This document shows, piece by piece, positions 14,492 to 60,084 of a stretch of DNA of 64,000 nucleotides (positions within the stretch are counted from its first letter, which is position 1; every line of letters starts with the position of its first letter). Below the pieces are notes generated by a model. That model had not been told where the DNA came from. It searched no databases and worked only from the letters and a program-made list of their open reading frames with translations. The DNA is from a bacterium (GTDB lineage Bacteria; Patescibacteriota; Minisyncoccia; Minisyncoccales; CG1-02-41-26), in NCBI GenBank assembly GCA_043802745.1, contig JAZDKU010000015.1, positions 1,358-65,357 of the forward strand, in the 5' to 3' direction. A program made the position numbers and the translations under genes.

Positions 14492-14536
14492 ACGATTGTA
14501 TTATAACAAAAAATTGTCTCAAAATCAATTGTAAAA

Positions 14537-14575
14537 CAAAACCGCTCCGACAAGCTTGTCGGAGCGGTTTTGTTT
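14537..14575. terminator. bidirectional rho-independent terminator downstream of groEL
   Basis: aaaaccgctccgacaagcttgtcggagcggtttt: 11-bp perfect stem flanked by A-run and T-run. Confidence 0.8.
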
Positions 14576-14582
14576 TGCTTGA

Positions 14583-20364: not shown

Positions 20365-21252
20365 ATGGAGAGGTTTTTGAATAATTTTCCAATAGGACAG
20401 ATCGATATAAAAAATTCTTATTTTCCCAAGGCGTTGAGAAATTTAGCGGGAATGCCAGAGGTTTTATATTACAGGGGCAATATCAAAATTTTAAATGAAA
20501 AATGCTTTGCCATTGTGGGCACGAGAAAGCCAACAGATTATGGCAAATCAGTTGCTTTATCTTTTAGCAATGGGCTTGCTGAATCTGGACTAACAATTGT
20601 TTCTGGCCTGGCCTTGGGCATTGATAGCTTAGCTCACCAGTGCGCTATTGATAAAAATGCTTTAACCATAGCGGTTTTGGGCTCTGGTCTAGACGAGCCA
20701 TGCTTTTACCCTGCAGAAAACTTAAAATTAGCCAAACAAATTTTAGAAAAAAATGGCTGTTTAGTTTCAGAATATCCATCTGGCACAAAAGGCGCTCTCT
20801 ATACTTTCCCGCAAAGAAACCGTATAATAGCAGGGTTGTCACTTGGAGCCTTAGTGGTGGAAGCAAAAATAAAATCTGGTGCTTTGATTACAGCCAGCTA
20901 TGCCAAGCAATATAAAAAACCTGTTTTTGCCATACCAAATAGCATTTACACCCAAACTTCCAAGGGCTGTAATTTTTTAATAAAAAACGGAGCCAAGCTG
21001 GTTGAATCGCCAAATGAAATCCTAGAAGTCCTTGGTTTAAAACAAAAAATAGAAACACAAGACCTTTTTGGCACAAGCCAAGAAAAAATAATAGCTGAAG
21101 TTCTAAAAAACGGCCCCTTACACATTGACACTATAATTGAAAAAACAAAAATGCCATCTCAGGCAATATCTGGAATTATCTGTATAATGGAATTAGAAAA
21201 TAAAATTAAAAACCTAGGCGCAAACACATATGCAATCATTAATAATAGTTGA
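20365..21252 (+). CDS. dprA: DNA processing protein DprA (Smf)
   Basis: AIVGTRKPTDYGKSVALSFSNGLAESGLTIVSGLALGIDSLAHQ Rossmann-like DprA core. Confidence 0.9.
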   Translation: MERFLNNFPIGQIDIKNSYFPKALRNLAGMPEVLYYRGNIKILNEKCFAIVGTRKPTDYGKSVALSFSNGLAESGLTIVSGLALGIDSLAHQCAIDKNALTIAVLGSGLDEPCFYPAENLKLAKQILEKNGCLVSEYPSGTKGALYTFPQRNRIIAGLSLGALVVEAKIKSGALITASYAKQYKKPVFAIPNSIYTQTSKGCNFLIKNGAKLVESPNEILEVLGLKQKIETQDLFGTSQEKIIAEVLKNGPLHIDTIIEKTKMPSQAISGIICIMELENKIKNLGANTYAIINNS

Positions 21253-23380
21253 AAGCCCGACAAAGGCGAAAACCCTGCAAGGGTTTCTTGACAAAAATTA
21301 CAATGTTATCTCTTCTTTTGGTCATGTGAGAGATTTGCCAAAAAGTGTTTTGGGTGTGGATGTTGAAAAAAACTTTGAAGTGAAGTATATCGTGCCAATT
21401 AAAGCCAAACCAAAGGTGAAGATCTTAAAAGAAGAGGCTAAAAAATCTGATGAAATTATACTAGCAACCGACGAAGACCGCGAAGGAGAAGCAATTGCCT
21501 GGCACTTATCTGAAGTTTTAAAGCTAGAAAACCCAAAAAGAATTGCTTTTCACGAAATAACAAAAACAGCTATTGAAGAAGCGTTAAAAAACCCGCGAAA
21601 AATAGATATGAATTTAGTAAACGCCCAGCAATCAAGAAGAGTTTTGGACAGATTGGTTGGCTACAAGCTTTCTCCTTTTTTATGGAAAAAAATAATGCGA
21701 GGGTTGTCAGCGGGCCGAGTGCAGTCAGTGGCTATGCGCTTAATTTGCGCAAGAGAAGACGAAATCAAAAAATTTATCCCCCAAGAGTACTGGTCCATTG
21801 AGGCATTGCTTGACCGCTTCCGCCCCACCCCTCGGCCCCAAGCCGAGGAGTGGGGCGGTTTCCGAGCAAATTTGATTGGCGTTGAAATAAAAAACAAAGC
21901 TCAAGCTGATAAAATTTTGCAGGAATTAGATGGGGCGCAATACATTGTTGAAAGCATTGAGAAAAAAGAAACAATCAGAAACCCCCAAGCCCCCTTCACC
22001 ACCAGCACTCTCCAACAAACATCTTCAAGCAAGCTAGGCTATGGAGCAAAAAGAACCATGATGATTGCCCAAAAGCTTTATGAAAAAGGTCATATTACCT
22101 ATCATCGTACCGATTCCTTAAACCTAAATATGCAAAGCCAAGAAATAGCCAAGCAGTTTATAATTAACTCTTTTGGTGAAAAATATTGGCCAGGAGATTA
22201 TAGAAAGTTTAAAACAAAATCAAAATCAGCCCAAGAAGCCCATGAGGCCATCCGGCCAACTCATCCTGAAAACGATCCTGATAGCTTTAAAAAATCAGCT
22301 AAGCCAACCCCAGACGAATCAAAGCTTTACACTTTAATTTGGCAAAGATTTATAGCTAGTCAAATGAGCCAGGCTATTTTTGACACTTGCTCAATTGACA
22401 TAAAAGCCCATTCGGCAAGCTCAGGGCAGGCCCCTTCGAATTCCTCAGGACAGGCTTATACATTTAGGGCTAATGGCCAAACCTTAAAATTTGATGGGTT
22501 TTTGAAAGTTTATCCTGTTAAGTTTGAAGAAACAGATTTGCCCAACTTGGATAAGGGCGAAGTTCTTGAGTTAAAAGACTTACTCTCAAATCAACATTTT
22601 ACCCAACCCCCGGCCAGATATTCAGAAGCAACATTAATAAAAGTTTTAGAAAAAGAAGGCATTGGCCGACCATCAACATATGCCCCAACGCTAAGCACAA
22701 TTCAACAGAGAAACTACACCGAGAAAGACGAAAACAAAAAGCTAAAACCAACCCAAATTGGCATAATGGTTGACACGATGCTTTTAGCGAACTTTCCCCA
22801 GATTGTAGATATTCAATTTACTGCTAAAATGGAGAAAGAGTTCGATGAGGTAGCTAATGGAAAAGACACTTTTCAACAAACCTTAAAAGATTTTTATATG
22901 CCATTTGAAAAAATTTTAAAAGACAAAGAAAAAACCGTGGAAAAATTAGATCTCACAGAAAAAACCGATAAAATATGCCCAGAATGTAAAAACCCAATGG
23001 TGCTACGGATGGGCAGGTTTGGAAAGTTTTATGCGTGCAGTAAGTTTCCAGAGTGTAAACATACAGAGCCAATAAAAAAACCAACTCTTGGAATTGAGTG
23101 CCCAAAATGCGGTCTAGGTCAAATAACTGAAAAAACAACAAAAACCAAAAAAATATTTTACGGTTGCTCAAATTGGCCCAAGTGCGACTTTGCTTTATGG
23201 GATAAACCAGTTAATCAATTCTGCCCGGATTGCAAGTCTATAATGATAGAAACAAAACCTGCCCGCAATGCTTCCAGCATAGCTGATGCAGGCGGGAGTA
23301 AAGTAATAAAATGCCCAAGTAAAACCTGCCCATCAATTATCAATGCAAAAGAAAATAAAAAACTTAAAAAGGAAACTTAA
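21230..23380 (+). CDS. topA: DNA topoisomerase I
   Basis: MQSLIIVESPTKAKT..., TOPRIM, active-site Tyr region, C-terminal zinc ribbons (CPECKNPM.., CPKCG.., CPDCK..). Confidence 0.95.
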   Translation: MQSLIIVESPTKAKTLQGFLDKNYNVISSFGHVRDLPKSVLGVDVEKNFEVKYIVPIKAKPKVKILKEEAKKSDEIILATDEDREGEAIAWHLSEVLKLENPKRIAFHEITKTAIEEALKNPRKIDMNLVNAQQSRRVLDRLVGYKLSPFLWKKIMRGLSAGRVQSVAMRLICAREDEIKKFIPQEYWSIEALLDRFRPTPRPQAEEWGGFRANLIGVEIKNKAQADKILQELDGAQYIVESIEKKETIRNPQAPFTTSTLQQTSSSKLGYGAKRTMMIAQKLYEKGHITYHRTDSLNLNMQSQEIAKQFIINSFGEKYWPGDYRKFKTKSKSAQEAHEAIRPTHPENDPDSFKKSAKPTPDESKLYTLIWQRFIASQMSQAIFDTCSIDIKAHSASSGQAPSNSSGQAYTFRANGQTLKFDGFLKVYPVKFEETDLPNLDKGEVLELKDLLSNQHFTQPPARYSEATLIKVLEKEGIGRPSTYAPTLSTIQQRNYTEKDENKKLKPTQIGIMVDTMLLANFPQIVDIQFTAKMEKEFDEVANGKDTFQQTLKDFYMPFEKILKDKEKTVEKLDLTEKTDKICPECKNPMVLRMGRFGKFYACSKFPECKHTEPIKKPTLGIECPKCGLGQITEKTTKTKKIFYGCSNWPKCDFALWDKPVNQFCPDCKSIMIETKPARNASSIADAGGSKVIKCPSKTCPSIINAKENKKLKKET
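21820..21858. repeat. GC-rich near-palindromic element inserted in-frame in topA (encodes RPTPRPQAEEWGG)
   Basis: ccgccccacccctcggccccaagccgaggagtggggcgg; 35 nt identical to copy in metG (29873-29911). Confidence 0.85.
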
Positions 23381-25238: not shown

Positions 25239-25255
25239 ATAAACAAAATAAAAAA

Positions 25256-25302
25256 GGGCAGACCTCCAAAAAACTTGAGCTCAGTTCTGGGGAGGTCTGC
25301 CC
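25256..25302. terminator. bidirectional terminator (gggcagacctcc ... ggaggtctgccc) between tRNA-Leu and convergent nucleotidyltransferase gene
   Basis: 12-bp perfect stem, A-run 5' and T-run 3'. Confidence 0.75.
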
Positions 25303-26055
25303 TTATTTATTTTGTTCGTTGAGGAAGTTTTCTACTTTGGCGATGTCGTCAGGGTTGCCAAAGTCTAGCCAATAATCCTCGAGCATTTTTACTTTTACTT
25401 TGCCCTCTTTTGCCAACAAAGTAACCGCGTCAGTTAACTCGTATTCTCCTCTTGGAGATAAACAAACTTGAGAAAGTTTTTCAAAAACTTCGGGCGTAAA
25501 CTTATAAATCCCCTTGTTAACCAAATTGCCAACATATTCTTTTGGCTTTTCTATAATCTCTTTTAAGTGGCCCTTGTCATCGATTATTAAAACCCCATAT
25601 TTTTCTGGATTTTCAGCCACAGAAGCGCCAATATAATTATAGACATCATCAATAGCCATTGATTTTAAATCGCGCACAGAAAATAAATTATCCCCATAAA
25701 TGGAAATAAAGCTTTCATTACCAACGAAATCTTTAATGCATTTCATTGGGCATAAAGTGCCATATTCTTTTTCTTTTGGGCCCAAAATCTTAAATTGATC
25801 AACCAGCTGGATTTTAATATCATTTTTATTATTACTAGAGCAATGCTCCAAATATTCCTTAGCAAACCTTTCCATTAATTCAGCAAAAAAGCCAACTACT
25901 AAGATAAAATCTTTGTAGCCAGCTTCAATTAAATTATCGAGCAAATAAGCCAAAAATGGCCTTTGCTTTACACAGATTAAGGACTTGGGCTTATCTTTGC
26001 AAAGCTCTTTCATCCTTGTGCCCTGGCCGGCTGCTGCAATAACAACTTTCATCAT
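25303..26055 (-). CDS. sugar-phosphate nucleotidyltransferase (NTP_transferase family)
   Basis: N-terminal AAGQGTRM (GxGTRx) motif. Confidence 0.75.
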   Translation of the reverse strand: MMKVVIAAAGQGTRMKELCKDKPKSLICVKQRPFLAYLLDNLIEAGYKDFILVVGFFAELMERFAKEYLEHCSSNNKNDIKIQLVDQFKILGPKEKEYGTLCPMKCIKDFVGNESFISIYGDNLFSVRDLKSMAIDDVYNYIGASVAENPEKYGVLIIDDKGHLKEIIEKPKEYVGNLVNKGIYKFTPEVFEKLSQVCLSPRGEYELTDAVTLLAKEGKVKVKMLEDYWLDFGNPDDIAKVENFLNEQNK

Positions 26056-29569: not shown

Positions 29570-31015
29570 TTAGGCTAGTCTTGGAAACAAAGGTTCGCTT
29601 TTGTTGGTTTTTATTTGTTCTAAAATTTTCTCTGAAGTTTGGGGCATAAAGGGCGCAAGCATCTCAGCGATGCTACAAATAACAAATAACAAATAACAAA
29701 TAACTTTTTCATTTTTAGTTTTTAGTTTTTCATTTCCTTCTTCCCATGGCTTTTCTGTGGCCATTATTTTATCGCAAACCCCGATCAACTCCCAAACAGC
29801 TCCCAAGGCCTCGTCAATTTTTAAATCTTTAAGCGCTATATTGTACTTATCTTTTGCCTGTTTCACCTCGCTTCCGCCCCACTCCTCGGCTTGGGGCCGA
29901 GGGGTGGGACGTAGTGCCTTGTATTTACTTGCAAGAGTTACAACTCTAGCAACCAAATTACCAAGGCCGCTAGCCAAGTCTGAATTATATTTTTCATCCA
30001 AGCGAACAAGCGAAACATCTCCGTCATTGCCAAAGGGAAATTGGGTTAAAAGTAAATACCTAGTAGCATCAACACCATATTTGTCTATTAAATCATTGGG
30101 GTCAACCACATTGCCGATTGTTTTGGACATTTTTTGGCCATCAATAGTGAAATAACCATGGCAAAAAACCTGTTTTGGCAACTGGTCAACAGCGTCTTCG
30201 CCATAATAAGCTAGCAACAAGGCTGGCCACATAATACAATGAAATTTTAGAATATCACGGCCGACTAATTGCAAGTCCATTGGCCAAAATTCAGTTTTGC
30301 CTAAATTCTGCAGAGCAGTCCAATAATTAAGCAAAGCGTCTACCCACACATAAATTGTCTGGCTTTCCTCCCATGGCAACTTAATGCCCCAAGAAACGCT
30401 TTTACGAGAAATAGAAATATCGTCAAGCCCCTGCTTTATCACGCCCAAAACCTCGCTTTTAGCATTTTCTGGCATTATTAAAATTTTATCTTGTTCTATT
30501 AGTTCTTGAATCTTTGGCAATAATTGCCTTAACTTAAAAAACCAATTCTCTTCAGCCACGTCTTGGGGCTCACATTTATGGTCTGGGCATTTGCCCTCAA
30601 CCAGATCTTTATCAGTCACAAACTTTTCACAACCCACACAATACTTGCCCGCATACTCGCCCTCATAAACAAAACCATTATTTTTTAATACTGTTAAAAA
30701 TTCCTGCACTTTTTCCTCGTGCGGTTTGTCCGTGGTGCGAATAAAGTATGAGTAGTCAATGTTTAAATTTTCCCAAGCTTTTTTAAATAAATCTGAAACT
30801 TCATCGCAAAATTCTTTTGGGGTTTTGTTGGCTTTTTGGCTAGCTTCAAAAATTTTAGCCCCATGCTCATCAGTGCCTGTTAGGAAAAAGACCTCTTTAC
30901 CGCCTATCTTATGATAGCGAGTCAAAACATCAACTGCCAAAGTAGTATAGGCATGGCCCAGATGTGGGCGTGAGTTCACATAATATATTGGGGTGGTTAA
31001 GTAAATTTTATTCAT
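29570..31015 (-). CDS. metG: methionyl-tRNA synthetase
   Basis: PIYYVNSRPHLGHAYTT (HIGH region), KMSKT, zinc-knuckle CVGCEKF..CPDHKC. Confidence 0.95.
   Translation of the reverse strand: MNKIYLTTPIYYVNSRPHLGHAYTTLAVDVLTRYHKIGGKEVFFLTGTDEHGAKIFEASQKANKTPKEFCDEVSDLFKKAWENLNIDYSYFIRTTDKPHEEKVQEFLTVLKNNGFVYEGEYAGKYCVGCEKFVTDKDLVEGKCPDHKCEPQDVAEENWFFKLRQLLPKIQELIEQDKILIMPENAKSEVLGVIKQGLDDISISRKSVSWGIKLPWEESQTIYVWVDALLNYWTALQNLGKTEFWPMDLQLVGRDILKFHCIMWPALLLAYYGEDAVDQLPKQVFCHGYFTIDGQKMSKTIGNVVDPNDLIDKYGVDATRYLLLTQFPFGNDGDVSLVRLDEKYNSDLASGLGNLVARVVTLASKYKALRPTPRPQAEEWGGSEVKQAKDKYNIALKDLKIDEALGAVWELIGVCDKIMATEKPWEEGNEKLKTKNEKVICYLLFVICSIAEMLAPFMPQTSEKILEQIKTNKSEPLFPRLA
29674..29732. repeat. adjacent in-frame heptamer arrays (CAAATAA)x4 and (TTTTTAG/TTTTTCA)x4 in metG C-terminal region
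   Basis: Encodes KLKTKNEKVICYLLFVICSI. Confidence 0.75.
29873..29911. repeat. GC-rich near-palindromic element in-frame in metG (encodes RPTPRPQAEEWGG), same coding orientation as topA copy
   Basis: rc reads cgtcccacccctcggccccaagccgaggagtggggcgg. Confidence 0.85.
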
Positions 31016-42332: not shown

Positions 42333-42752
42333 CTAAAGGCCTGTTTTCTTTTTTAAATAATTATATTTCTGCAGAGCGTCAAACTTTTCTTGCGAGGGCT
42401 TGTAGGCCTTGCCTTTTTGCTCTAAATCGCGCATTGTTTCTTGCAGAGCTTTTCTACTAACATACTCGCCAAATTTTTCTTTAGGAAAAAGACTCTCAGC
42501 CAAAGCTTTTCTTTTGGCTCGGCTTGAATAGCTACCTCGAATGCCCGCCTTCCAGCCAGTTTGAGGAATTCTATCTTTATCAAGAGTGATTTTTTTAACC
42601 AAATCATTCCGCTTAACAAAATCCCTTCTACCTGAAAAAAATATTTTTTTATCAAGCTTTTTAAAACCAACCCTCTTGGGTCTTGCTTCCCCAGTTGAAC
42701 TTAAACCAAAAAATTTAGGAATTCTATCTAATATAGACATAGCGCTAACCAA
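42333..42752 (-). CDS. hypothetical basic protein
   Basis: 139 aa, Lys/Arg-rich, no motif recognised; overlaps ileS 3' end by 25 nt. Confidence 0.4.
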   Translation of the reverse strand: MVSAMSILDRIPKFFGLSSTGEARPKRVGFKKLDKKIFFSGRRDFVKRNDLVKKITLDKDRIPQTGWKAGIRGSYSSRAKRKALAESLFPKEKFGEYVSRKALQETMRDLEQKGKAYKPSQEKFDALQKYNYLKKKTGL

Positions 42753-45673
42753 ATTACTTTCCCATCTATTTTAAATTCTGACTGGGCTAAGAATTCTCCT
42801 TCTTTATTTTTGTTTTCTTTTATTTCTTTTGAGCGAGTGGTTGATAAAATTTCGGCTTTGTTTTTATCAAAAATTTTCTCTAAACTCTTTTCAGCAGAGT
42901 AACTAATAACAATATTTGTGTCGTTTGGCGTTAGCCCGGCTTGTTTGCGCAAGCTTTGGATATTTCTAATAATTTCCCGCACTGTGCCCTCTTCTTTTAA
43001 CTCCTCGGTCATAGTAGTGTCCAGCTCAACCCCACCAGTAATATCATCGCTAAACAAAACCTCTTTAACATTGACCTCATCTTTAATTAATTCCAAAAAT
43101 TCTTTTTTCCCCTTTATTCCTAATTCATAATTCTTAATTCTTAATTCTTTTAAGGCTTGTCTCACCCCAATACCAAGCTCGGCTCTTTTGGCCAAAACCA
43201 AAGAAACAACATCCCTAACCTCCTGCATATCTTTTTCTAATTTTTCATCAATAAGTTTCTTATCCACTTTAGGCCAATCGCACAGATGAACCGACCGAGG
43301 GCAGCCCTCGGGGTAGCACCCCGAGGGCTGCCCTCGGGACACTAACTGCTGATAAATATCTTCAGCTAAAAATGGCATAAAAGGAGTGGTAAGTTTGGCA
43401 ATAGTTATTAAAACATCATAAAAAGTTTGCTCTGCTTCTTGAAATCTTTTGCGCGATCTTCGCACATACCAAAGCGACAAATCATTAATCCAAAAATTTT
43501 CAATAGCCAACGTGGCTTTCATTACGTCAAATTTATCTAAGCTATCTGTTGCCTCTTTTATTAAATTATTTAATTTTGAAATTATCCATCTATCTAAAAC
43601 ATTCTTGATTCTTGATTCTTGATTCTTGATTCTTGATTCTGACGCGTATGTTAAAAAGAAGGTTACGCAATTTGTTAAAGTTAAGATTTTTCTTTCAGTT
43701 TCTTTGGCCACATTATAGCCAAACCTCATATTGTTGGCTGGATTTTGTACCACATACATCCATCTCATCACGTCAGCTCCGATTTTTTCTACTGCCTCGT
43801 CAAACCAAATAGCATTGCCTTTTGACTTGTGCATTTCCTCGCCCTTTTCATCCACTACTGAAGCAAACCCTAATAAATTCTTAAACGGCATTTCATTTTC
43901 CAAAACTTGGCTCATCACCAACAAAACATAAAACCAATTTTTAAATTGACCGGGAAAACTCTCGCACACTAAATCAGCTGGGAACCATTTGTCCCACTCT
44001 CCTTTATTATTATGAAAATAGCCGGGAATGGTTGAAAATGGCACAATACCCGCATCCAGCCATGGAGTACCAACATCTAAAATTCTTGGCACAACTTCAC
44101 TGCACTTTGAGCATTTTATCTTTACTGAATCAATCCAAGGCCGATGAAGTGAATTTCCCTCGAATTCTTTCCAACCCTCCACTGCCCTTTCTTTTAATTC
44201 TCCCATTGAGCCAATAACATCAAAATTTTTACACTTAGAGCATTCATAAATCGGCAGGGCCAAACCCCAATATCTTTTTTTAGATATTAGCCAATCGCGC
44301 ATATTCAGGAGCCAATCAAGCTCTCTTTCTAAGCAAAAACCAGGAACCCAGTTTATTTTTCTGGCAATAGTCATTAGTGGTGCTTTTAGATAATCCATAG
44401 CAATATACCACTCATCAACCAAGCGAAAAATTAACTCACTTTTACATCTCCAGCAAGTTGGATACCTGTGTTTATAATCTTCTATTTTATAAACTAAGTT
44501 ATTGGTTTTTAATCTTTCAAAAATAAGCTCACGAACAAACTCTTCGCCCACAAAATGCCCGGTTAAAGCATCAAAGCCTTCGGCGTATTTACTTTCATCG
44601 TTAGTTGGATTAACAACTGGCAAGCCTTGTTCTTTCCCTAAAGCAAAATCTTCCTGGCCACACCCTGGGGCAGAGTGCACAACTCCAGTGCCCTCTTCTT
44701 GCGTTACATCTTTCCATAAAATAACTTTGTGCTCATAACTTTTTAAAGCCTCCCTTACAGCGGGCAATTCATCAAAAAGCCCAGTATATCTCTTGCCTTC
44801 AAGCGCCCTACCTTCAAATACTTCCAAAATTTGACCATTTTCAATTAAACTAGCTTTGTCTTTTAATAAGATATAAATTTCGCCAGTTTTTGGGTCAGCT
44901 ACTTTAGCATAAATCAAATCCGGATGAACTGATAAAAAAACATTGGCCACTAATGTCCATGGAGTGGTTGTCCAGGCTAAAAAATATGTTTCATTTTCGC
45001 CCATAACTGGCAGTTTAAAATAAATAGCCTTATGGGTTATTTCTTTATATTCCTCAGTTAAAATTTCGTGCTGGGAAATAGCAGTGCCACATCTCGGACA
45101 CCAAGGCACCACATCATGGCCTTTGTATAAAAGCCCTTTTTCTTTACACCTCTTCAGGAAATGCCAAATAGCGTAATTATTTTCTGGGGACATTGTGTAA
45201 TACGAATGGCTTTGCTCCATCCACTCGCCTTTTTCATCAAAATCTGTTTGCCAGTTGCCCCAATCCCGCAACATGCCCAATCTTATGGACTGCTCGGTTT
45301 GGATTTTTGAATATTTATGCACCCGCTCCTTACATTTGTTGACAAAATTAGCAATGCCGTATCTTTCAATGTCCTTTTTGTTGCGAAAGCCAAGTTCTTT
45401 TTCCACTTCTACTTCCACCCAAAGCCCTTGGCAATCAAAACCATTTTGGAAGCGCTCGCTATAGCCTTGCATGGCCCTATACCGCTGAAATAAGTCTTTG
45501 TAAGTCCTGCCCCAAGCATGATGAACGCCCATGGGGTTATTAGCAGTTATCGGACCATCTAAAAAACTCCAAGGCTTTCCTTTTTTATTTTTCTCTTTCA
45601 GTTTTTCTAAAAGTTTTATATCCTCCCAAAACTTTAAAGTTTCCTTTTCTTTTTTTACAAAATCATTTTCCAT
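42728..45673 (-). CDS. ileS: isoleucyl-tRNA synthetase
   Basis: HIGH-region (PITANNPMGVHHAWGRTYKD), KMSKSKGN, CP1 editing domain, 981 aa. Confidence 0.95.
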   Translation of the reverse strand: MENDFVKKEKETLKFWEDIKLLEKLKEKNKKGKPWSFLDGPITANNPMGVHHAWGRTYKDLFQRYRAMQGYSERFQNGFDCQGLWVEVEVEKELGFRNKKDIERYGIANFVNKCKERVHKYSKIQTEQSIRLGMLRDWGNWQTDFDEKGEWMEQSHSYYTMSPENNYAIWHFLKRCKEKGLLYKGHDVVPWCPRCGTAISQHEILTEEYKEITHKAIYFKLPVMGENETYFLAWTTTPWTLVANVFLSVHPDLIYAKVADPKTGEIYILLKDKASLIENGQILEVFEGRALEGKRYTGLFDELPAVREALKSYEHKVILWKDVTQEEGTGVVHSAPGCGQEDFALGKEQGLPVVNPTNDESKYAEGFDALTGHFVGEEFVRELIFERLKTNNLVYKIEDYKHRYPTCWRCKSELIFRLVDEWYIAMDYLKAPLMTIARKINWVPGFCLERELDWLLNMRDWLISKKRYWGLALPIYECSKCKNFDVIGSMGELKERAVEGWKEFEGNSLHRPWIDSVKIKCSKCSEVVPRILDVGTPWLDAGIVPFSTIPGYFHNNKGEWDKWFPADLVCESFPGQFKNWFYVLLVMSQVLENEMPFKNLLGFASVVDEKGEEMHKSKGNAIWFDEAVEKIGADVMRWMYVVQNPANNMRFGYNVAKETERKILTLTNCVTFFLTYASESRIKNQESRIKNVLDRWIISKLNNLIKEATDSLDKFDVMKATLAIENFWINDLSLWYVRRSRKRFQEAEQTFYDVLITIAKLTTPFMPFLAEDIYQQLVSRGQPSGCYPEGCPRSVHLCDWPKVDKKLIDEKLEKDMQEVRDVVSLVLAKRAELGIGVRQALKELRIKNYELGIKGKKEFLELIKDEVNVKEVLFSDDITGGVELDTTMTEELKEEGTVREIIRNIQSLRKQAGLTPNDTNIVISYSAEKSLEKIFDKNKAEILSTTRSKEIKENKNKEGEFLAQSEFKIDGKVIWLALCLY
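43119..43149. repeat. 31-nt element identical to tatD copy, in-frame in ileS (ELRIKNYELG)
   Basis: cctaattcataattcttaattcttaattctt. Confidence 0.85.
43295..43337. repeat. 43-nt GC-rich perfect palindrome (20-bp arms, 3-nt loop; each arm itself a hairpin) in-frame in ileS
   Basis: ccgagggcagccctcggggt-agc-accccgagggctgccctcgg; encodes SRGQPSGCYPEGCPRSV. Confidence 0.85.
43603..43642. repeat. in-frame (TTGATTC)x6 heptamer array in ileS (encodes ESRIKNQESRIKN)
   Basis: Seen in sequence. Confidence 0.8.
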
Positions 45674-50103: not shown

Positions 50104-50161
50104 GCGGGCCCGCCCGCATCGCTACGCGAGCAAGCTCGCTTGCGAAGCGTTGCGGGCGGGG
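50104..50161. repeat. GC-rich hairpin (cccgcccgca ... tgcgggcggg) abutting tmRNA 5' end
   Basis: 10-bp stem enclosing GC-rich loop; terminator of GIY-YIG gene or member of GC-palindrome family. Confidence 0.5.
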
Positions 50162-50523
50162 ATGACAGCTTTGACAATTATGGCTTATTTAATAAGCAAG
50201 CCGAGCTCCAAAATCTCGCAAAACTTTTGGAAAACCATAAGTGCTACATACACCTATGAACCAGCTTACGCATTAGCATAAGCCTGTCTAGCCTTTAAGG
50301 CTGGGCCATCTCGCCTGTTGATTCCTAATAAACAGGACGGGGTGACAAATTATTAGGATTGGCAAATAGCCCTCCCAAACTATTTGCTGAAAAATTTGGG
50401 ATCGAAGCTTAAAATTTTTGTTATTTTTATATTTTGGGCTTTTAAACTTTTAAAATAACTAAGCTTGTAGTATTGTTAAGTAAATCGTTTTTGGACGAGA
50501 GTTCAATCTCTCCATCTCCACCC
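50158..50523 (+). ncRNA. ssrA: tmRNA (ssrA), predicted tag (A)ATYTYEPAYALA*
   Basis: 5' GGGGATG pairs with 3' CATCTCC; 3' end GGACGAGAGTTCAATCTCTC-CATCTCC-A matches tmRNA T-arm/acceptor; 5' ACAGCTTTGAC resembles conserved D-analog UUCGAC; in-frame GCT(50243)...GCA TTA GCA TAA(50279-81) ~86 nt from 5' end; smpB immediately upstream. Confidence 0.6.
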
Positions 50524-51724: not shown

Positions 51725-51740
51725 AAATTATAATTAAAAG

Positions 51741-51777
51741 CTCCCCGGCCCATCCGCCAACTGGCGGAGCCAGGGAG
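51741..51777 (+). terminator. rho-independent terminator of infC-rpmI-rplT operon
   Basis: ctccccggcccatccgccaactggcggagccagggag followed by tttt; core ccgccaactggcgg recurs at 59521-59540. Confidence 0.7.
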
Positions 51778-51822
51778 TTTTAGTTTAAGTTATTTAGTAA
51801 ATTTAAAAGTTGCCAAAATTTA

Positions 51823-59481: not shown

Positions 59482-59505
59482 ATTTTTTAAAAAATTATTC
59501 CCACA

Positions 59506-59555
59506 GACCCCACTCCTCCGCTCCGCCAACTGGCGGACGGCGGAGGGGTGGGGTC
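59506..59555 (-). terminator. GC-rich hairpin terminator after methyltransferase gene (gaccccactcctccgc ... gcggaggggtggggtc)
   Basis: 16-bp stem abutting stop codon; shares CCCCACYCCTC core with topA/metG in-frame element. Confidence 0.6.
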
Positions 59556-60084
59556 AAGTGCTGTTTATAAACAAAAGCCCGTAGTGATAACCGCTAGTTT
59601 CAATTTTTTTCTCCAAAACAAAATCTTGTTCTTCGGCAATCTCTTGAACGCGACCCGCAGAAACACGGCTTTCTTGCATGGGTCCAAAAGGCGATTCCAT
59701 ATCCCACTCAATTACTAAAACTTTTCCGCTTTGTTTTAAAACTCTTTTTGCTTCTTTAAAAACCGCGCTTTTGTCATCAATTTGAAATAAAAGATTTGTC
59801 ATTAGCACAATATCACAAGAATTATTTTCTATTTGCTTTATGCCTCTTTCAATATCAGCTAAAACTTTTTTAATATTATTTATGCCTTGCAGGTTCGCCT
59901 TGCTCATCAATGCTGACAATGCGTTTTCTTGCACATCAACAGCATAGACAACACCGTCTTCTAATTTGCTGGCCAAAGGAATCACCCATCCGCCCGAGCC
60001 ACAACCAAAATCAGCTGCTATCATATCTTTTTCAAGCGCTAATTGATTTAAAATTTCATTTGGATCTAAAAACCCTGTTGGCAT
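59554..60084 (-). CDS. class I SAM-dependent methyltransferase
   Basis: DFGCGSGGWVIPLA motif I. Confidence 0.75.
   Translation of the reverse strand: MPTGFLDPNEILNQLALEKDMIAADFGCGSGGWVIPLASKLEDGVVYAVDVQENALSALMSKANLQGINNIKKVLADIERGIKQIENNSCDIVLMTNLLFQIDDKSAVFKEAKRVLKQSGKVLVIEWDMESPFGPMQESRVSAGRVQEIAEEQDFVLEKKIETSGYHYGLLFINST

What the first reader, a model, noticed from the sequence alone, without database searches (positions are those of the whole stretch)
43295..43337. 43-nt perfect GC-rich palindrome (nested hairpins) translated inside ileS
ccgagggcagccctcggggt-agc-accccgagggctgccctcgg has 20-bp perfectly complementary arms, and each arm is itself a hairpin (ccgagggc-N-gccctcgg), so the sequence can form a cruciform. 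It lies in frame in isoleucyl-tRNA synthetase and contributes ~SRGQPSGCYPEGCPRSV to the protein. Perfect long palindromes are unstable in bacteria, so perfection implies very recent insertion or active maintenance. It is a second family of GC-rich intragenic elements, distinct from the topA/metG one.
Basis: seen in the sequence. Interest (0 to 1): 0.62.

Follow-up and report, generated by a model that had tools for sequence, protein, structure and literature searches.

The report
In-frame REPIN-like palindrome inside ileS
The perfect 43-base palindrome in the isoleucyl-tRNA synthetase gene is real. It is one copy of a small hairpin repeat that is scattered through the genomes of ultra-small Patescibacteria and sits next to a REP-type tyrosine transposase gene in related genomes. 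Unusually for such repeats, it often lands inside genes, in frame, and is translated as an extra surface loop.

Summary
Window 43295-43337 is a perfect 20+3+20 palindrome inside an intact ileS gene (42728-45673, minus strand). With 5 adjacent bases it replaces the 21-nt loop found in 106 of 120 orthologues, a net gain of 9 residues. AlphaFold2 places it in a coil that includes the longest very-low-confidence stretch of the model.

It is not a one-off. It is an inverted doublet of a 17-nt palindromic unit with core GAGGGCWGCCCTC. Doublets of the wider core GAGG[G/T]C[A/T]G[A/C]CCTC occur in more than 112 genome stretches, mostly Patescibacteria. Of 100 low-GC doublets, 83 are inverted, with perfect arms of 13-29 nt. 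Spacers differ between copies, and 62% lie in frame in housekeeping genes.

In related genomes the same units directly flank a gene for an HUH/Tyr Y1 transposase. Its closest solved relative is E. coli TnpA-REP, though the match is weak. Related units sit at exactly the same ileS junction in at least 4-5 separate lineages.

Best reading: a miniature REPIN-like element, carried as a translated passenger. It departs from classical REPs in being intragenic, very short, without a GTAG/CGTC head, and paired with a longer, divergent transposase. No transposase gene lies in this window, and mobility is inferred, not shown.

The parts
43295..43337 (.). Perfect 43-nt palindrome, read here as an inverted doublet of two REP-like units (REPIN-like)
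   Evidence: Arms are 20/20 complementary with a 3-nt loop. The arm length sits near the middle of the range (13-29 nt) seen in 83 inverted doublets of the family.
43295..43311 (.). Unit 1, CCGAGGGCAGCCCTCGG (17-nt palindrome; 7-bp stem with a CAG loop)
   Evidence: The core GAGGGCAGCCCTC differs by one base from the GAGGGCAGACCTC units that flank a Y1 transposase gene in L023.
43312..43320 (.). Spacer GGTAGCACC. GGT pairs with ACC and the central AGC is unpaired.
   Evidence: In relatives, spacers differ between copies but still pair. The same is reported for REPINs (PMC3337134).
43321..43337 (.). Unit 2, CCGAGGGCTGCCCTCGG, the reverse complement of unit 1
43295..43342 (-). The whole 48-nt lineage-specific segment (GTGTC plus the palindrome on the coding strand). 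It encodes IleRS residues 778-793, VSRGQPSGCYPEGCPR, and replaces the 21-nt loop KGKDMPE of the closest orthologue.
   Evidence: In the AlphaFold2 model it is coil after helix 767-779; residues 781-790 have a mean pLDDT of 47.
42728..45673 (-). Host gene ileS (981 aa), intact
   Evidence: Pfam families precomputed for the identical database protein: tRNA-synt_1, Anticodon_1 and DUF5915. It is 80% identical to P0002.
25242..25316 (.). Intergenic hairpin of the same superfamily, after tRNA-Leu. Arms are AAGGGCAGACCTCC / GGAGGTCTGCCCTT and the loop is AAAAAACTTGAGCTCAGTTCTGG.
   Evidence: The same arm-and-loop design occurs in L001 (after ileS), L051, L114 and several Gribaldobacteria loci.

Best explanation
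The palindrome is a miniature REPIN-like element: two inverted copies of a short REP-like palindromic unit. It belongs to a repeat superfamily with core GAGG-K-CWG-M-CCTC that is dispersed through Patescibacteria genomes.

Shown here:
- The units are multi-copy in related genomes.
- They occur mostly as inverted doublets that form perfect hairpins, with spacers that are specific to each copy.
- They directly flank genes for an HUH/Tyr Y1 transposase whose nearest characterised relatives are REP-associated tyrosine transposases (RAYTs).

Inferred:
- That enzyme, acting on the hairpin in single-stranded DNA as IS200/IS605 and RAYT enzymes do, disperses the units. No target-site duplication is made.
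- The element landed directly after the Leu777 codon of ileS. Related units hit the same junction independently in other lineages.
- The copy survived because it keeps the reading frame, has no stop codon, and sits in a disordered surface loop between the anticodon-binding helices and the C-terminal domain.
- The ribosome reads through a roughly -48 kcal/mol mRNA hairpin and adds 9 net residues. The peptide is a by-product with no function of its own.
- Perfection of the arms reflects youth and turnover. It does not reflect selection on IleRS.
For: (a) Indel. The closest orthologue (L001, 80% identity) has 21 nt where the window has 48 nt. In 106 of 120 orthologues the aligned segment spanning this loop has the standard length.

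(b) Family. A scan of one genome per species found more than 112 stretches with doublets of the core. Most hits are Patescibacteria, with at least 4-9 doublets in single MAGs.

(c) REPIN-like anatomy. Of 100 low-GC doublets, 83 are inverted, 16 direct and 1 neither. Arms are perfect for 13-29 nt, well beyond the 13 nt the search pattern required. Within one genome the unit is constant while spacers differ. PMC3337134 reports the same for REPINs.

(d) Transposase link. A 241-aa PF01797 Y1_Tnp gene lies beside ileS in L137 and is flanked on both sides by hairpin units. Homologues occur in 10 of the doublet-selected loci. In L023, L100, L056, L059 and L044 they are bracketed on both sides by the core units, and in L026 a doublet lies at one side. 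All 11 proteins keep the HUH motif (PNH[I/F]H) and a Y-x-x-x-N motif (Y[I/V]HxNP in most). The best NCBIfam hit is REP_Tyr_transpos. The best solved structure is 4er8, TnpA-REP. The family has 6681 members with E<=1e-10, and the few named members are annotated as transposase, including from Patescibacteria. One member sits at the same locus in all 8 contigs shown, of 24 read, with its own flanking palindromes.

(e) Same junction, separate lineages. Units follow the Leu codon directly in the window, L002, L003, L004 and L135. L002 and L135 keep the host AAA codon right after a 21-nt unit. The carriers are polyphyletic in the IleRS tree.

(f) Passenger peptide. All three reading frames are used across host genes (RGQTS/GGLTS, EVRPL, RSDL). 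In the AlphaFold2 model the insert is low-confidence coil. Degenerate copies exist in L002 and L004.

(g) No target-site duplication, as expected for Y1/HUH elements.
Against: - No Y1 transposase gene lies in the 64-kb window. The rest of this genome could not be read, so the link is by family, not by genome.
- Only one doublet and one related hairpin were found in the window. No exact copy of this unit's doublet was found in JGI metagenomes.
- The transposase family scores below NCBIfam's RAYT cut-off (48.8 versus 80 bits). The PDB match is weak (E = 0.013).
- Classical REP features are missing. GTAG/CGTC heads are not enriched. The elements are not extragenic: 62% lie in ORF context, against 77% for random positions.
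- The ileS copy replaces host sequence rather than inserting cleanly.
- No conserved flanking target motif was found across the family.
- Transposition of REPINs by RAYTs has, to my knowledge, never been shown directly, even in model bacteria.
Confidence: 0.62

Rival explanations
1. The hairpin family is real but spreads without a transposase. Existing copies act as donors for ectopic gene conversion or replication template switching, at sites with short similarity such as Pro/Gly codons (CCTCC/GGAGG). This overwrites host codons. The neighbouring Y1 genes are then just another place where the hairpins accumulate.
For: - The ileS copy replaces 21 nt rather than inserting cleanly.
- In LepA (L104) the doublet-encoded EVRPPAGGLTS overlays the conserved IPPPxGD motif, with a net gain of only 2 residues.
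- There is no target-site duplication and no common flanking motif.
- A second hairpin family varies between 1, 2 and 3 tandem copies among near-identical strains, which shows recombination or slippage dynamics.
Against: - The units bracket Y1 genes tightly on both sides in five loci of different lineages, with a doublet at one side in a sixth. Unit variants are specific to each genome. That is the REP/RAYT signature.
- L002 and L135 show clean 21-nt unit insertions at one phosphodiester bond.
- The 83:16 bias towards inverted doublets is not predicted by simple conversion.
Confidence: 0.15
2. The hairpin is a functional cis-element kept by selection. It could be an mRNA structure that pauses ribosomes or sets mRNA stability. 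It could also be a double palindromic binding site for a conserved dimeric DNA-binding protein, possibly the domesticated Y1 protein itself.
For: - The core is conserved across many Patescibacteria classes, while the outer stem co-varies and stays paired.
- The core reads as two half-sites, GAGGNC-W-GNCCTC.
- Gains recur at the same ileS and TopA loops.
- PMC3337134 discusses co-option of REPINs and RAYTs.
Against: - In 106 of 120 IleRS orthologues, including the closest one, the aligned segment around this loop has the standard length and carries no insert.
- Copies decay in L002 and L004.
- Host genes, positions and reading frames are heterogeneous.
- There is no U-tract, so the element is not a terminator.
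Confidence: 0.1
3. The palindrome arose on the spot, by fold-back or template-switch synthesis, and has no relation to other loci. Alternatively, it is an assembly or chimera artefact.
For: Only one copy of this exact sequence is known. Read-level data were not available.
Against: - The same core occurs in more than 100 independent assemblies and at the same ileS junction in four other MAGs.
- The gene stays in frame. Lengths are multiples of three in all eight filled or empty sites examined.
- The identical protein carries two NCBI accessions.
Confidence: 0.04
4. The inserted peptide is the selected product, for example a Cys-x4-Cys metal or redox site (GCYPEGC) added to IleRS.
For: The insert encodes two cysteines in a protein family that uses zinc-binding cysteine clusters.
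Against: - The cysteines simply follow from reading GGGTGCTACCCCGAGGGCTGC in this frame.
- Related inserts at the same site encode unrelated peptides: CGGQPSAKMKEGSPPQ, YGGQTSVSFTEGRPP, APRGLTPGDCR.
- The segment is low-confidence coil in the model.
Confidence: 0.03

Closest known systems
REPINs (REP doublets forming hairpins) and their RAYT transposases (Bertels & Rainey 2011, PMC3116915, PMC3337134; E. coli TnpA-REP, PDB 4er8)
   Same: - Two short palindromic units lie in inverted orientation and form a near-perfect hairpin.
- Spacers are unique to each copy but still pair.
- The unit sequence is specific to each genome.
- A Y1 HUH transposase gene with conserved HUH and Tyr motifs is flanked by the units.
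- The one transposase gene checked sits at a fixed locus.
- There is no target-site duplication.
   Different: - Size is 43 nt here, against about 90 nt in Pseudomonas.
- GTAG/CGTC heads are not enriched.
- The elements are not extragenic. About 62% lie in frame inside housekeeping genes, close to the 77% expected at random.
- The transposase is longer (200-257 aa), scores below NCBI's RAYT equivalog cut-off, and is only weakly similar to 4er8.
- The host phylum is Patescibacteria. No REPIN/RAYT report for it was found in the searchable literature.
Rickettsia palindromic elements (RPEs; Ogata et al. 2000, recalled from memory; cited in the MITE review PMC10969869)
   Same: Palindromic selfish repeats are inserted in frame into essential protein genes of a reduced, AT-rich genome. 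They are translated and tolerated at surface positions.
   Different: RPEs are about 100-150 bp, are not built as doublets of a 13-17-nt palindromic unit, have no known associated transposase, and are confined to Rickettsia. No sequence comparison was made here.
IS200/IS605-derived miniature elements, with TnpA acting on subterminal hairpins (IS608; ISDra2, PDB 2xm3)
   Same: The enzyme is of the Y1 HUH type. Hairpins are the recognised structures. There is no target-site duplication. In ileS the left junction is fixed, with units always directly 3' of the Leu codon CTT/TTA.
   Different: No general 4-5-nt target motif was found. The two hairpins are inverted copies of one palindrome rather than distinct left and right ends. 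The enzyme aligns slightly better with TnpA-REP than with ISDra2 TnpA.
Mobile GC clusters of yeast mitochondria and double-hairpin elements of Allomyces mitochondrial DNA (recalled from memory)
   Same: Short GC-rich palindromic or double-hairpin elements, 30-80 nt long, occur in a very AT-rich genome. They are optional between strains and are sometimes in frame inside protein genes (var1).
   Different: These are organellar systems with no associated Y1 transposase and unrelated sequences. This is an analogy only.

Membership tests
REP/REPIN-RAYT system | A short palindromic unit repeated many times in the genome | tested here: inconclusive
   Related MAGs carry at least 4-9 doublets each. 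In the window's own 64 kb there is only one doublet plus one related hairpin. The rest of the genome was not available.
REP/REPIN-RAYT system | [quoted passage not shown] | tested here: met
   The window has 20/20 complementary arms and a 3-nt loop. In the family, 83 doublets are inverted, 16 direct and 1 neither.
REP/REPIN-RAYT system | The spacer differs between copies but keeps the hairpin | tested here: met
   In Chersky_89 and WC_15 the unit is constant while every spacer differs, and the arms extend beyond the 13-nt core. PMC3337134 states the same for REPINs.
REP/REPIN-RAYT system | A Y1 (HUH plus Tyr) transposase gene flanked by the cognate units | tested here: met
   Met in relatives: L137, L023, L100, L056, L059, L044 and L139 have units on both sides, and L026 on one side. 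Not found in the window and not testable for the rest of this genome.
REP/REPIN-RAYT system | The transposase qualifies as a RAYT by the curated model NF047646 | tested here: not met
   The score is 48.8 bits against a cut-off of 80. Pfam Y1_Tnp passes, at 32.2 against 23. The best PDB match is 4er8 TnpA-REP, at only E = 0.013.
REP/REPIN-RAYT system | Predominantly extragenic location | tested here: not met
   Of 99 doublets, 61.6% lie in a stop-free frame with at least 150 flanking codons. The figure for random positions in the same loci is 77.0%. The window copy is inside ileS.
REP superfamilies of Di Nocera et al. 2013 (PMC3733652) | An unpaired GTAG or CGTC head at one end of the unit | tested here: not met
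   GTAG/CTAC occurs within 12 nt of 7.7% of units, against 6.9% at control positions. CGTC/GACG occurs at 2.9%, against 9.6%.
RAYT (as opposed to a multi-copy IS200) | Single copy at a fixed locus | tested here: inconclusive
   P0339 lies in the same gene neighbourhood in all 8 contigs shown, of 24 read. These come from one population. Copy number within a genome was not measurable.
IS200/IS605-type miniature element | Insertion without target-site duplication, 3' of a conserved 4-5-nt target | tested here: inconclusive
   There is no duplication: the observed distribution equals the shuffled expectation. The left junction in ileS always follows CTT/TTA. No family-wide flank motif was found.
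Rickettsia palindromic elements | A 100-150-bp palindromic repeat of the RPE sequence families, in frame in protein genes | tested here: not met
   In-frame residence is shared. However, the element is 43 nt long and is built from a 17-nt unit. Sequence similarity to RPEs was not tested.
Rfam RNA families | A match at gathering score | tested here: not met
   Only tmRNA and two tRNAs were found in the window.

The most novel reading that the evidence does not exclude
Patescibacteria carry a phylum-wide, previously undescribed REPIN/RAYT-like system whose units are inserted with site precision into coding DNA. The same phosphodiester bond, directly after the Leu777 codon of ileS, was hit in at least 4-5 lineages, and one TopA loop was hit in at least two. 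On this reading the Y1 enzyme recognises particular host sequences or structures, as IS200/IS605 enzymes recognise their target. The system would then be a major, ongoing source of the lineage-specific loops that pepper the housekeeping proteins of these bacteria. This would be more than random insertion filtered by tolerance.
Probability: 0.25. Interest if true: 0.8.

Novelty: new variant of a known kind. Interest (0 to 1): 0.62.

Why it matters
REPs and REPINs are defined as extragenic and are known mainly from Proteobacteria. Here a REPIN-like repeat, with a large and divergent Y1 transposase family (6681 database proteins), is found across Patescibacteria. It is split between coding and non-coding DNA at a ratio not far from random.

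If this holds, three things follow.
- It explains many of the odd GC-rich, Gly/Pro/Arg/Ser-rich insertions in the proteins of these organisms.
- It gives a second example, with a candidate enzyme attached, of selfish DNA written into proteins. Rickettsia palindromic elements are the first.
- It offers a small and tractable enzyme-substrate pair (a Y1 protein and a 17-21-nt hairpin) for testing how REPINs actually move, which is still unproven.

There are practical consequences too. These hairpins break assemblies, because many Y1 genes sit on 1-3 kb contigs. They also inflate apparent protein divergence in phylogenomic markers such as IleRS and TopA.

Tried and rejected
- **Target-site duplications.** The observed length distribution equals the shuffled expectation.
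- **Conserved flanking target motif.** None found.
- **GTAG/CGTC heads.** Not enriched.
- **First transposase search.** The family was only found by chance, beside ileS in L137.
- **Rfam at gathering score.** No family covers the element.
- **Viral contigs.** One hit only.
- **JGI metagenomes.** The exact doublet gave 0 hits. The 19-nt unit gave 16 hits, of which 13 are in GC-rich contigs and probably chance or terminators. Three are in low-GC contigs, one of them in frame in an RsmI-like ORF.
- **Intrinsic terminator.** No T-run follows the ileS copy. T-runs flank only 7 of 29 non-coding and 5 of 54 coding inverted doublets.
- **DNA-uptake sequence.** Rejected because the density is far too low, about 2 elements per 64 kb.
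- **RNA-level removal (bulge-helix-bulge intron or translational bypass).** Rejected because all eight filled or empty ileS sites differ by multiples of 3 and carry no stop codon.
- **Helical phasing of the two units.** Centre-to-centre spacing ranges from 17 to 43 with no single mode, although the three ileS doublets are all 26.
- **Locating the window's own contig.** Look-up of P0001 is not on record, and neither is P0401.
- **Literature.** No paper contains the core sequences. None links RAYT or REPIN with Patescibacteria, or describes intragenic hairpins there.
Full report
**1.

Window 43295-43337 reads CCGAGGGCAGCCCTCGGGGT-AGC-ACCCCGAGGGCTGCCCTCGG. It has 20-nt arms that are 100% complementary and a 3-nt spacer. 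No dinucleotide-preserving shuffle of the window, out of 100, produced a match to the arm. The 83-nt surrounding stretch folds at -53.7 kcal/mol as RNA (z = -8.85) and -30.3 kcal/mol as DNA (z = -8.76). The window is 37.5% GC, and this is one of about a dozen short islands of at least 70% GC.

Each arm is itself a palindrome, CCGAGGG-CWG-CCCTCGG. The element can therefore be described in two equivalent ways. It is a nested hairpin, or it is two copies of one 17-nt palindromic unit that differ only at the central base.

**2. Host gene and the indel**

The element lies in a 981-aa ORF at 42728-45673 on the minus strand. That ORF is IleRS. It is 100% identical to an NCBI MAG protein, and its next relative is 80% identical. 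Named relatives belong to Patescibacteria (Pacebacteria, Gribaldobacteria, Nealsonbacteria).

- On the coding strand the window has CAG CAG TTA | GTGTC + palindrome (48 nt) | TCG GTT CAT.
- The closest orthologue (L001) has CAG CAG TTA | AAA GGT AAA GAT ATG CCA GAG (21 nt) | TCC GTA CAT.

So 48 nt replace 21 nt, and VSRGQPSGCYPEGCPR (residues 778-793) replaces KGKDMPE. This is not a clean insertion.

In 106 of 120 orthologues the aligned segment spanning this loop has the standard length, and about ten carry something extra there. An AlphaFold2 model (mean pLDDT 84) places the insert in coil after helix 767-779. Residues 781-790 have a mean pLDDT of 47, the lowest ten-residue block in the model, and 782-786 fall below 50. 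Across 125 diverse IleRS representatives this loop ranges from 4 to 37 residues, so it is a tolerant site.

**3. The same junction is occupied by related units in other lineages**

DNA of the orthologues that carry extra residues shows the following.

| Locus (protein) | Sequence after the Leu codon |
|---|---|
| L002 (P0013) | CTT \| TGCGGAGGGCAGCCCTCCGCA \| AAA ATG AAG \| GAAGGCAGCCCTCCGCAA \| GAT TAT CCG GAA |
| L003 (P0014) | perfect 26-nt tandem CTTTACGGAGGGCAGACCTCCGTCAG, two copies |
| L004 (P0017) | TTA \| GCGCC-CCGAGGTCTGACCCCGGGG... |
| L135 (P0022) | CTT \| TACAGGGGTCTGACCCCTGTA \| AAA ... |

In all five cases, counting the window, the left junction is directly after the Leu codon. 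L002 and L135 keep the host AAA codon right after a 21-nt unit. That is a clean single-unit insertion in frame. All filled sites differ from the empty site by multiples of three.

In a neighbour-joining tree of IleRS the carriers are polyphyletic.
- P0001 is sister to the insert-free P0002.
- P0013 is sister to the insert-free P0009 and P0011.
- P0014, P0017 and P0018 form one clade.
- P0022 and P0032 stand apart.

That means at least 4-5 gains, or lateral replacement, at one junction. Degenerate copies (the second unit in L002, and L004) show that the elements decay at this site.

**4. It is a member of a dispersed superfamily**

I scanned one genome per species with the pattern GAGGKCWGMCCTC-N(3-30)-GAGGKCWGMCCTC. 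Most are Patescibacteria: Gribaldobacteria, Paceibacterota, Nealson-, Kaiser-, Doudna-, Portnoy-, Taga- and Nomurabacteria, and Saccharibacteria. Several loci per MAG were hit, including two in the window's closest relative. A minority are GC-rich actinobacteria and are probably unrelated.

Among 100 low-GC doublets:
- 83 are inverted, 16 direct and 1 neither.
- Perfect arms run 13-29 nt, with one outlier of 60. The window's 20 is near the middle of that range.
- Within one genome the unit is constant while every spacer differs. Examples are TGCAGAGGTCWGACCTCTGCA in Chersky_89 and TTGGAGGTCWGACCTCCAA in WC_15.
- Of the 99 in fetched loci, 61 lie in a stop-free frame with at least 150 flanking codons. 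The figure for random positions in the same loci is 77%.

Host genes include TopA (the same loop in two MAGs), GuaA, UvrD, GatB, LigA, UvrC, LepA, MiaB, Tgt, CysRS and GatA. All three reading frames are used, giving RGQTS/GGLTS, EVRPL/P and RSDL, so the peptides are by-products. No target-site duplication and no common flank motif were found.

**5. A candidate enzyme**

While I was fetching another orthologue, a 241-aa PF01797 (Y1_Tnp) gene turned up directly upstream of ileS in L137. It is bracketed by hairpin units.
- ACAGGGGATGGACCCCCGT ends a few bases before its ATG.
- TACGGGGGTCTATCCCCTGTA and TACAGGGGTCCATCCCCTGTA lie after its stop codon.
- These are nearly the same unit as the ileS insert of L135.

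Homologues occur in 10 of the loci that had been fetched only because they contain doublets. In L023, L100, L056, L059 and L044 the gene is bracketed on both sides by the core units, and in L026 a doublet lies at one side. The L023 unit, CGAGGGCAGACCTCG, differs from the window's by one base.

Properties of the proteins:
- All 11 keep the HUH motif (PNH[I/F]H) and a Y-x-x-x-N motif (Y[I/V]HxNP in most).
- Pfam Y1_Tnp passes its cut-off.
- The only NCBIfam hit is REP-associated tyrosine transposase, but below its cut-off (48.8 against 80 bits).
- A profile of ten of them finds E. coli TnpA-REP (4er8) as the best solved structure, ahead of ISDra2 TnpA. Both matches are weak (E = 0.013 and 0.016). 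They align across the HUH motif, and the TnpA-REP alignment also covers the Tyr motif.
- The family has 6681 database members at E<=1e-10. Most are unnamed; the few named members are called transposase or putative transposase, including one from Patescibacteria.
- One member sits in the same gene neighbourhood in all 8 contigs shown, of 24 read. Its own palindromes abut the start and stop codons.

This is the arrangement described for REPs and REPINs with their RAYTs. The description includes genome-specific unit types and spacers that vary but still form hairpins (PMC3337134).

**6. Interpretation**

The most economical reading is that the ileS palindrome is a miniature REPIN-like doublet.

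Shown:
- the anatomy of the element;
- its membership of the family;
- the link to a transposase in relatives;
- recurrence at one junction;
- in-frame residence in a disordered loop.

Inferred:
- that the Y1 enzyme moves the units through single-stranded hairpins;
- that this genome has such an enzyme;
- that the copy is young and neutral.

The element departs from classical REPs in several tested respects.
- It is intragenic.
- It is about half the usual size.
- GTAG/CGTC heads are not enriched.
- The enzyme is longer and divergent.

I therefore file it as a new variant of a known kind, and I do not file it as a member of the classical REP families.

Replacement of host codons, seen in ileS and LepA, keeps a rival alive in which conversion or template switching spreads the hairpins. 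A selected cis-function is unlikely at this site, because most orthologues lack the element and copies decay. An artefact is unlikely given the many independent assemblies that carry the family.

This rests on general knowledge and was not tested here.

**7. Literature**

No paper in the searchable library contains the core sequences. None links RAYT or REPIN with Patescibacteria, or describes intragenic hairpin repeats there. The closest precedents for in-frame palindromic selfish DNA are the Rickettsia palindromic elements and the mitochondrial GC clusters and double-hairpin elements. These are recalled from memory.

Noticed in passing
window 21820-21858 (topA), 29875-29915 (metG), 59505-59556 (5' end of the 1436-aa ORF / intergenic): A separate GC-rich hairpin family with arms CCCCAC[C/T]CCTC[G/C]GC. 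Two copies lie in frame in TopA and MetRS.
   Followed up: partly
window 50109-50160 (abutting the 5' end of tmRNA at 50158-50522) and 23258-23296 (topA C-terminus); L004 4236-4271 and 4596-4667: A third hairpin family, CC[C/T]GCCCGCA-AYGCT...GCGGGCGGG, about 36 nt or 12 codons. In Gribaldobacteria IleRS it encodes PARNASRSDAGG. Near-identical strains carry 1, 2 or 3 tandem copies, and an 85%-identical relative carries none. This is a copy-number polymorphism of an in-frame hairpin.
   Followed up: partly
window 22415-22456 (topA): ASSGQAPSNSSGQA is encoded by two degenerate TCAGG[G/A]CAGGC repeats. They lie in the same TopA loop where two other MAGs (L036, L080) carry intact GAGGTCWGACCTC doublets. 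This may be a decayed doublet.
   Followed up: partly
window 25242-25316; L001 12952-13003; L051, L114, L019, L040, L068, L113: An intergenic long-loop subfamily. The arms are GAGG[G/T]CAGACCTCC and the conserved loop is about AAAACTG[A/G]GCTC[A/C]AG. In Gribaldobacteria it is embedded in a larger palindromic repeat of about 110 nt, present in at least 5 near-identical copies. It is not in Rfam.
   Followed up: partly
window 51736-51780 and 59515-59535: Both GC-rich hairpins contain the same inner palindrome TCCGCCAACTGGCGGA. This may be yet another small repeat.
   Followed up: no
window 14533-14576: A perfect 44-nt palindrome with no spacer (AAAACAAAACCGCTCCGACAAG / CTTGTCGGAGCGGTTTTGTTTT), between a zinc-ribbon protein gene and groEL. 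It looks like a bidirectional terminator.
   Followed up: no
L104 4264-4295 (LepA of a Nealsonbacteria MAG): The doublet-encoded EVRPPAGGLTS aligns over the conserved IPPPxGD motif of LepA, with a net gain of only 2 residues. The hairpin has overwritten, and partly mimics, conserved Pro/Gly codons.
   Followed up: partly
P0123 / P0124 (Gribaldobacteria MAG, COZ78_02605 and COZ78_02600): In one MAG, IleRS is called as two ORFs of 460 and 478 aa that break near residue 580. This is a frameshift or an assembly problem in an otherwise identical gene. A 10-aa DGESEVLEHK indel is also polymorphic among the near-identical strains.
   Followed up: no
L007, L015, L024, L029, L064, L076, L116 ('uncultured Gammaproteobacteria' MAGs, GC 0.34-0.41) and L100 ('Thermotogae' MAG): The same doublets occur in low-GC MAGs labelled as other phyla. 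In L024 and L100 the Y1 gene is present too. These are either mislabelled bins or evidence of spread beyond Patescibacteria.
   Followed up: no
window 20365-23380: dprA, the recombination mediator of natural transformation, lies immediately upstream of topA and overlaps it. The window is otherwise made up of housekeeping genes (UvrA, GroEL, LeuRS, MetRS, RelA/SpoT, TatD). No mobile-element gene was found among the ORFs scanned.
   Followed up: partly
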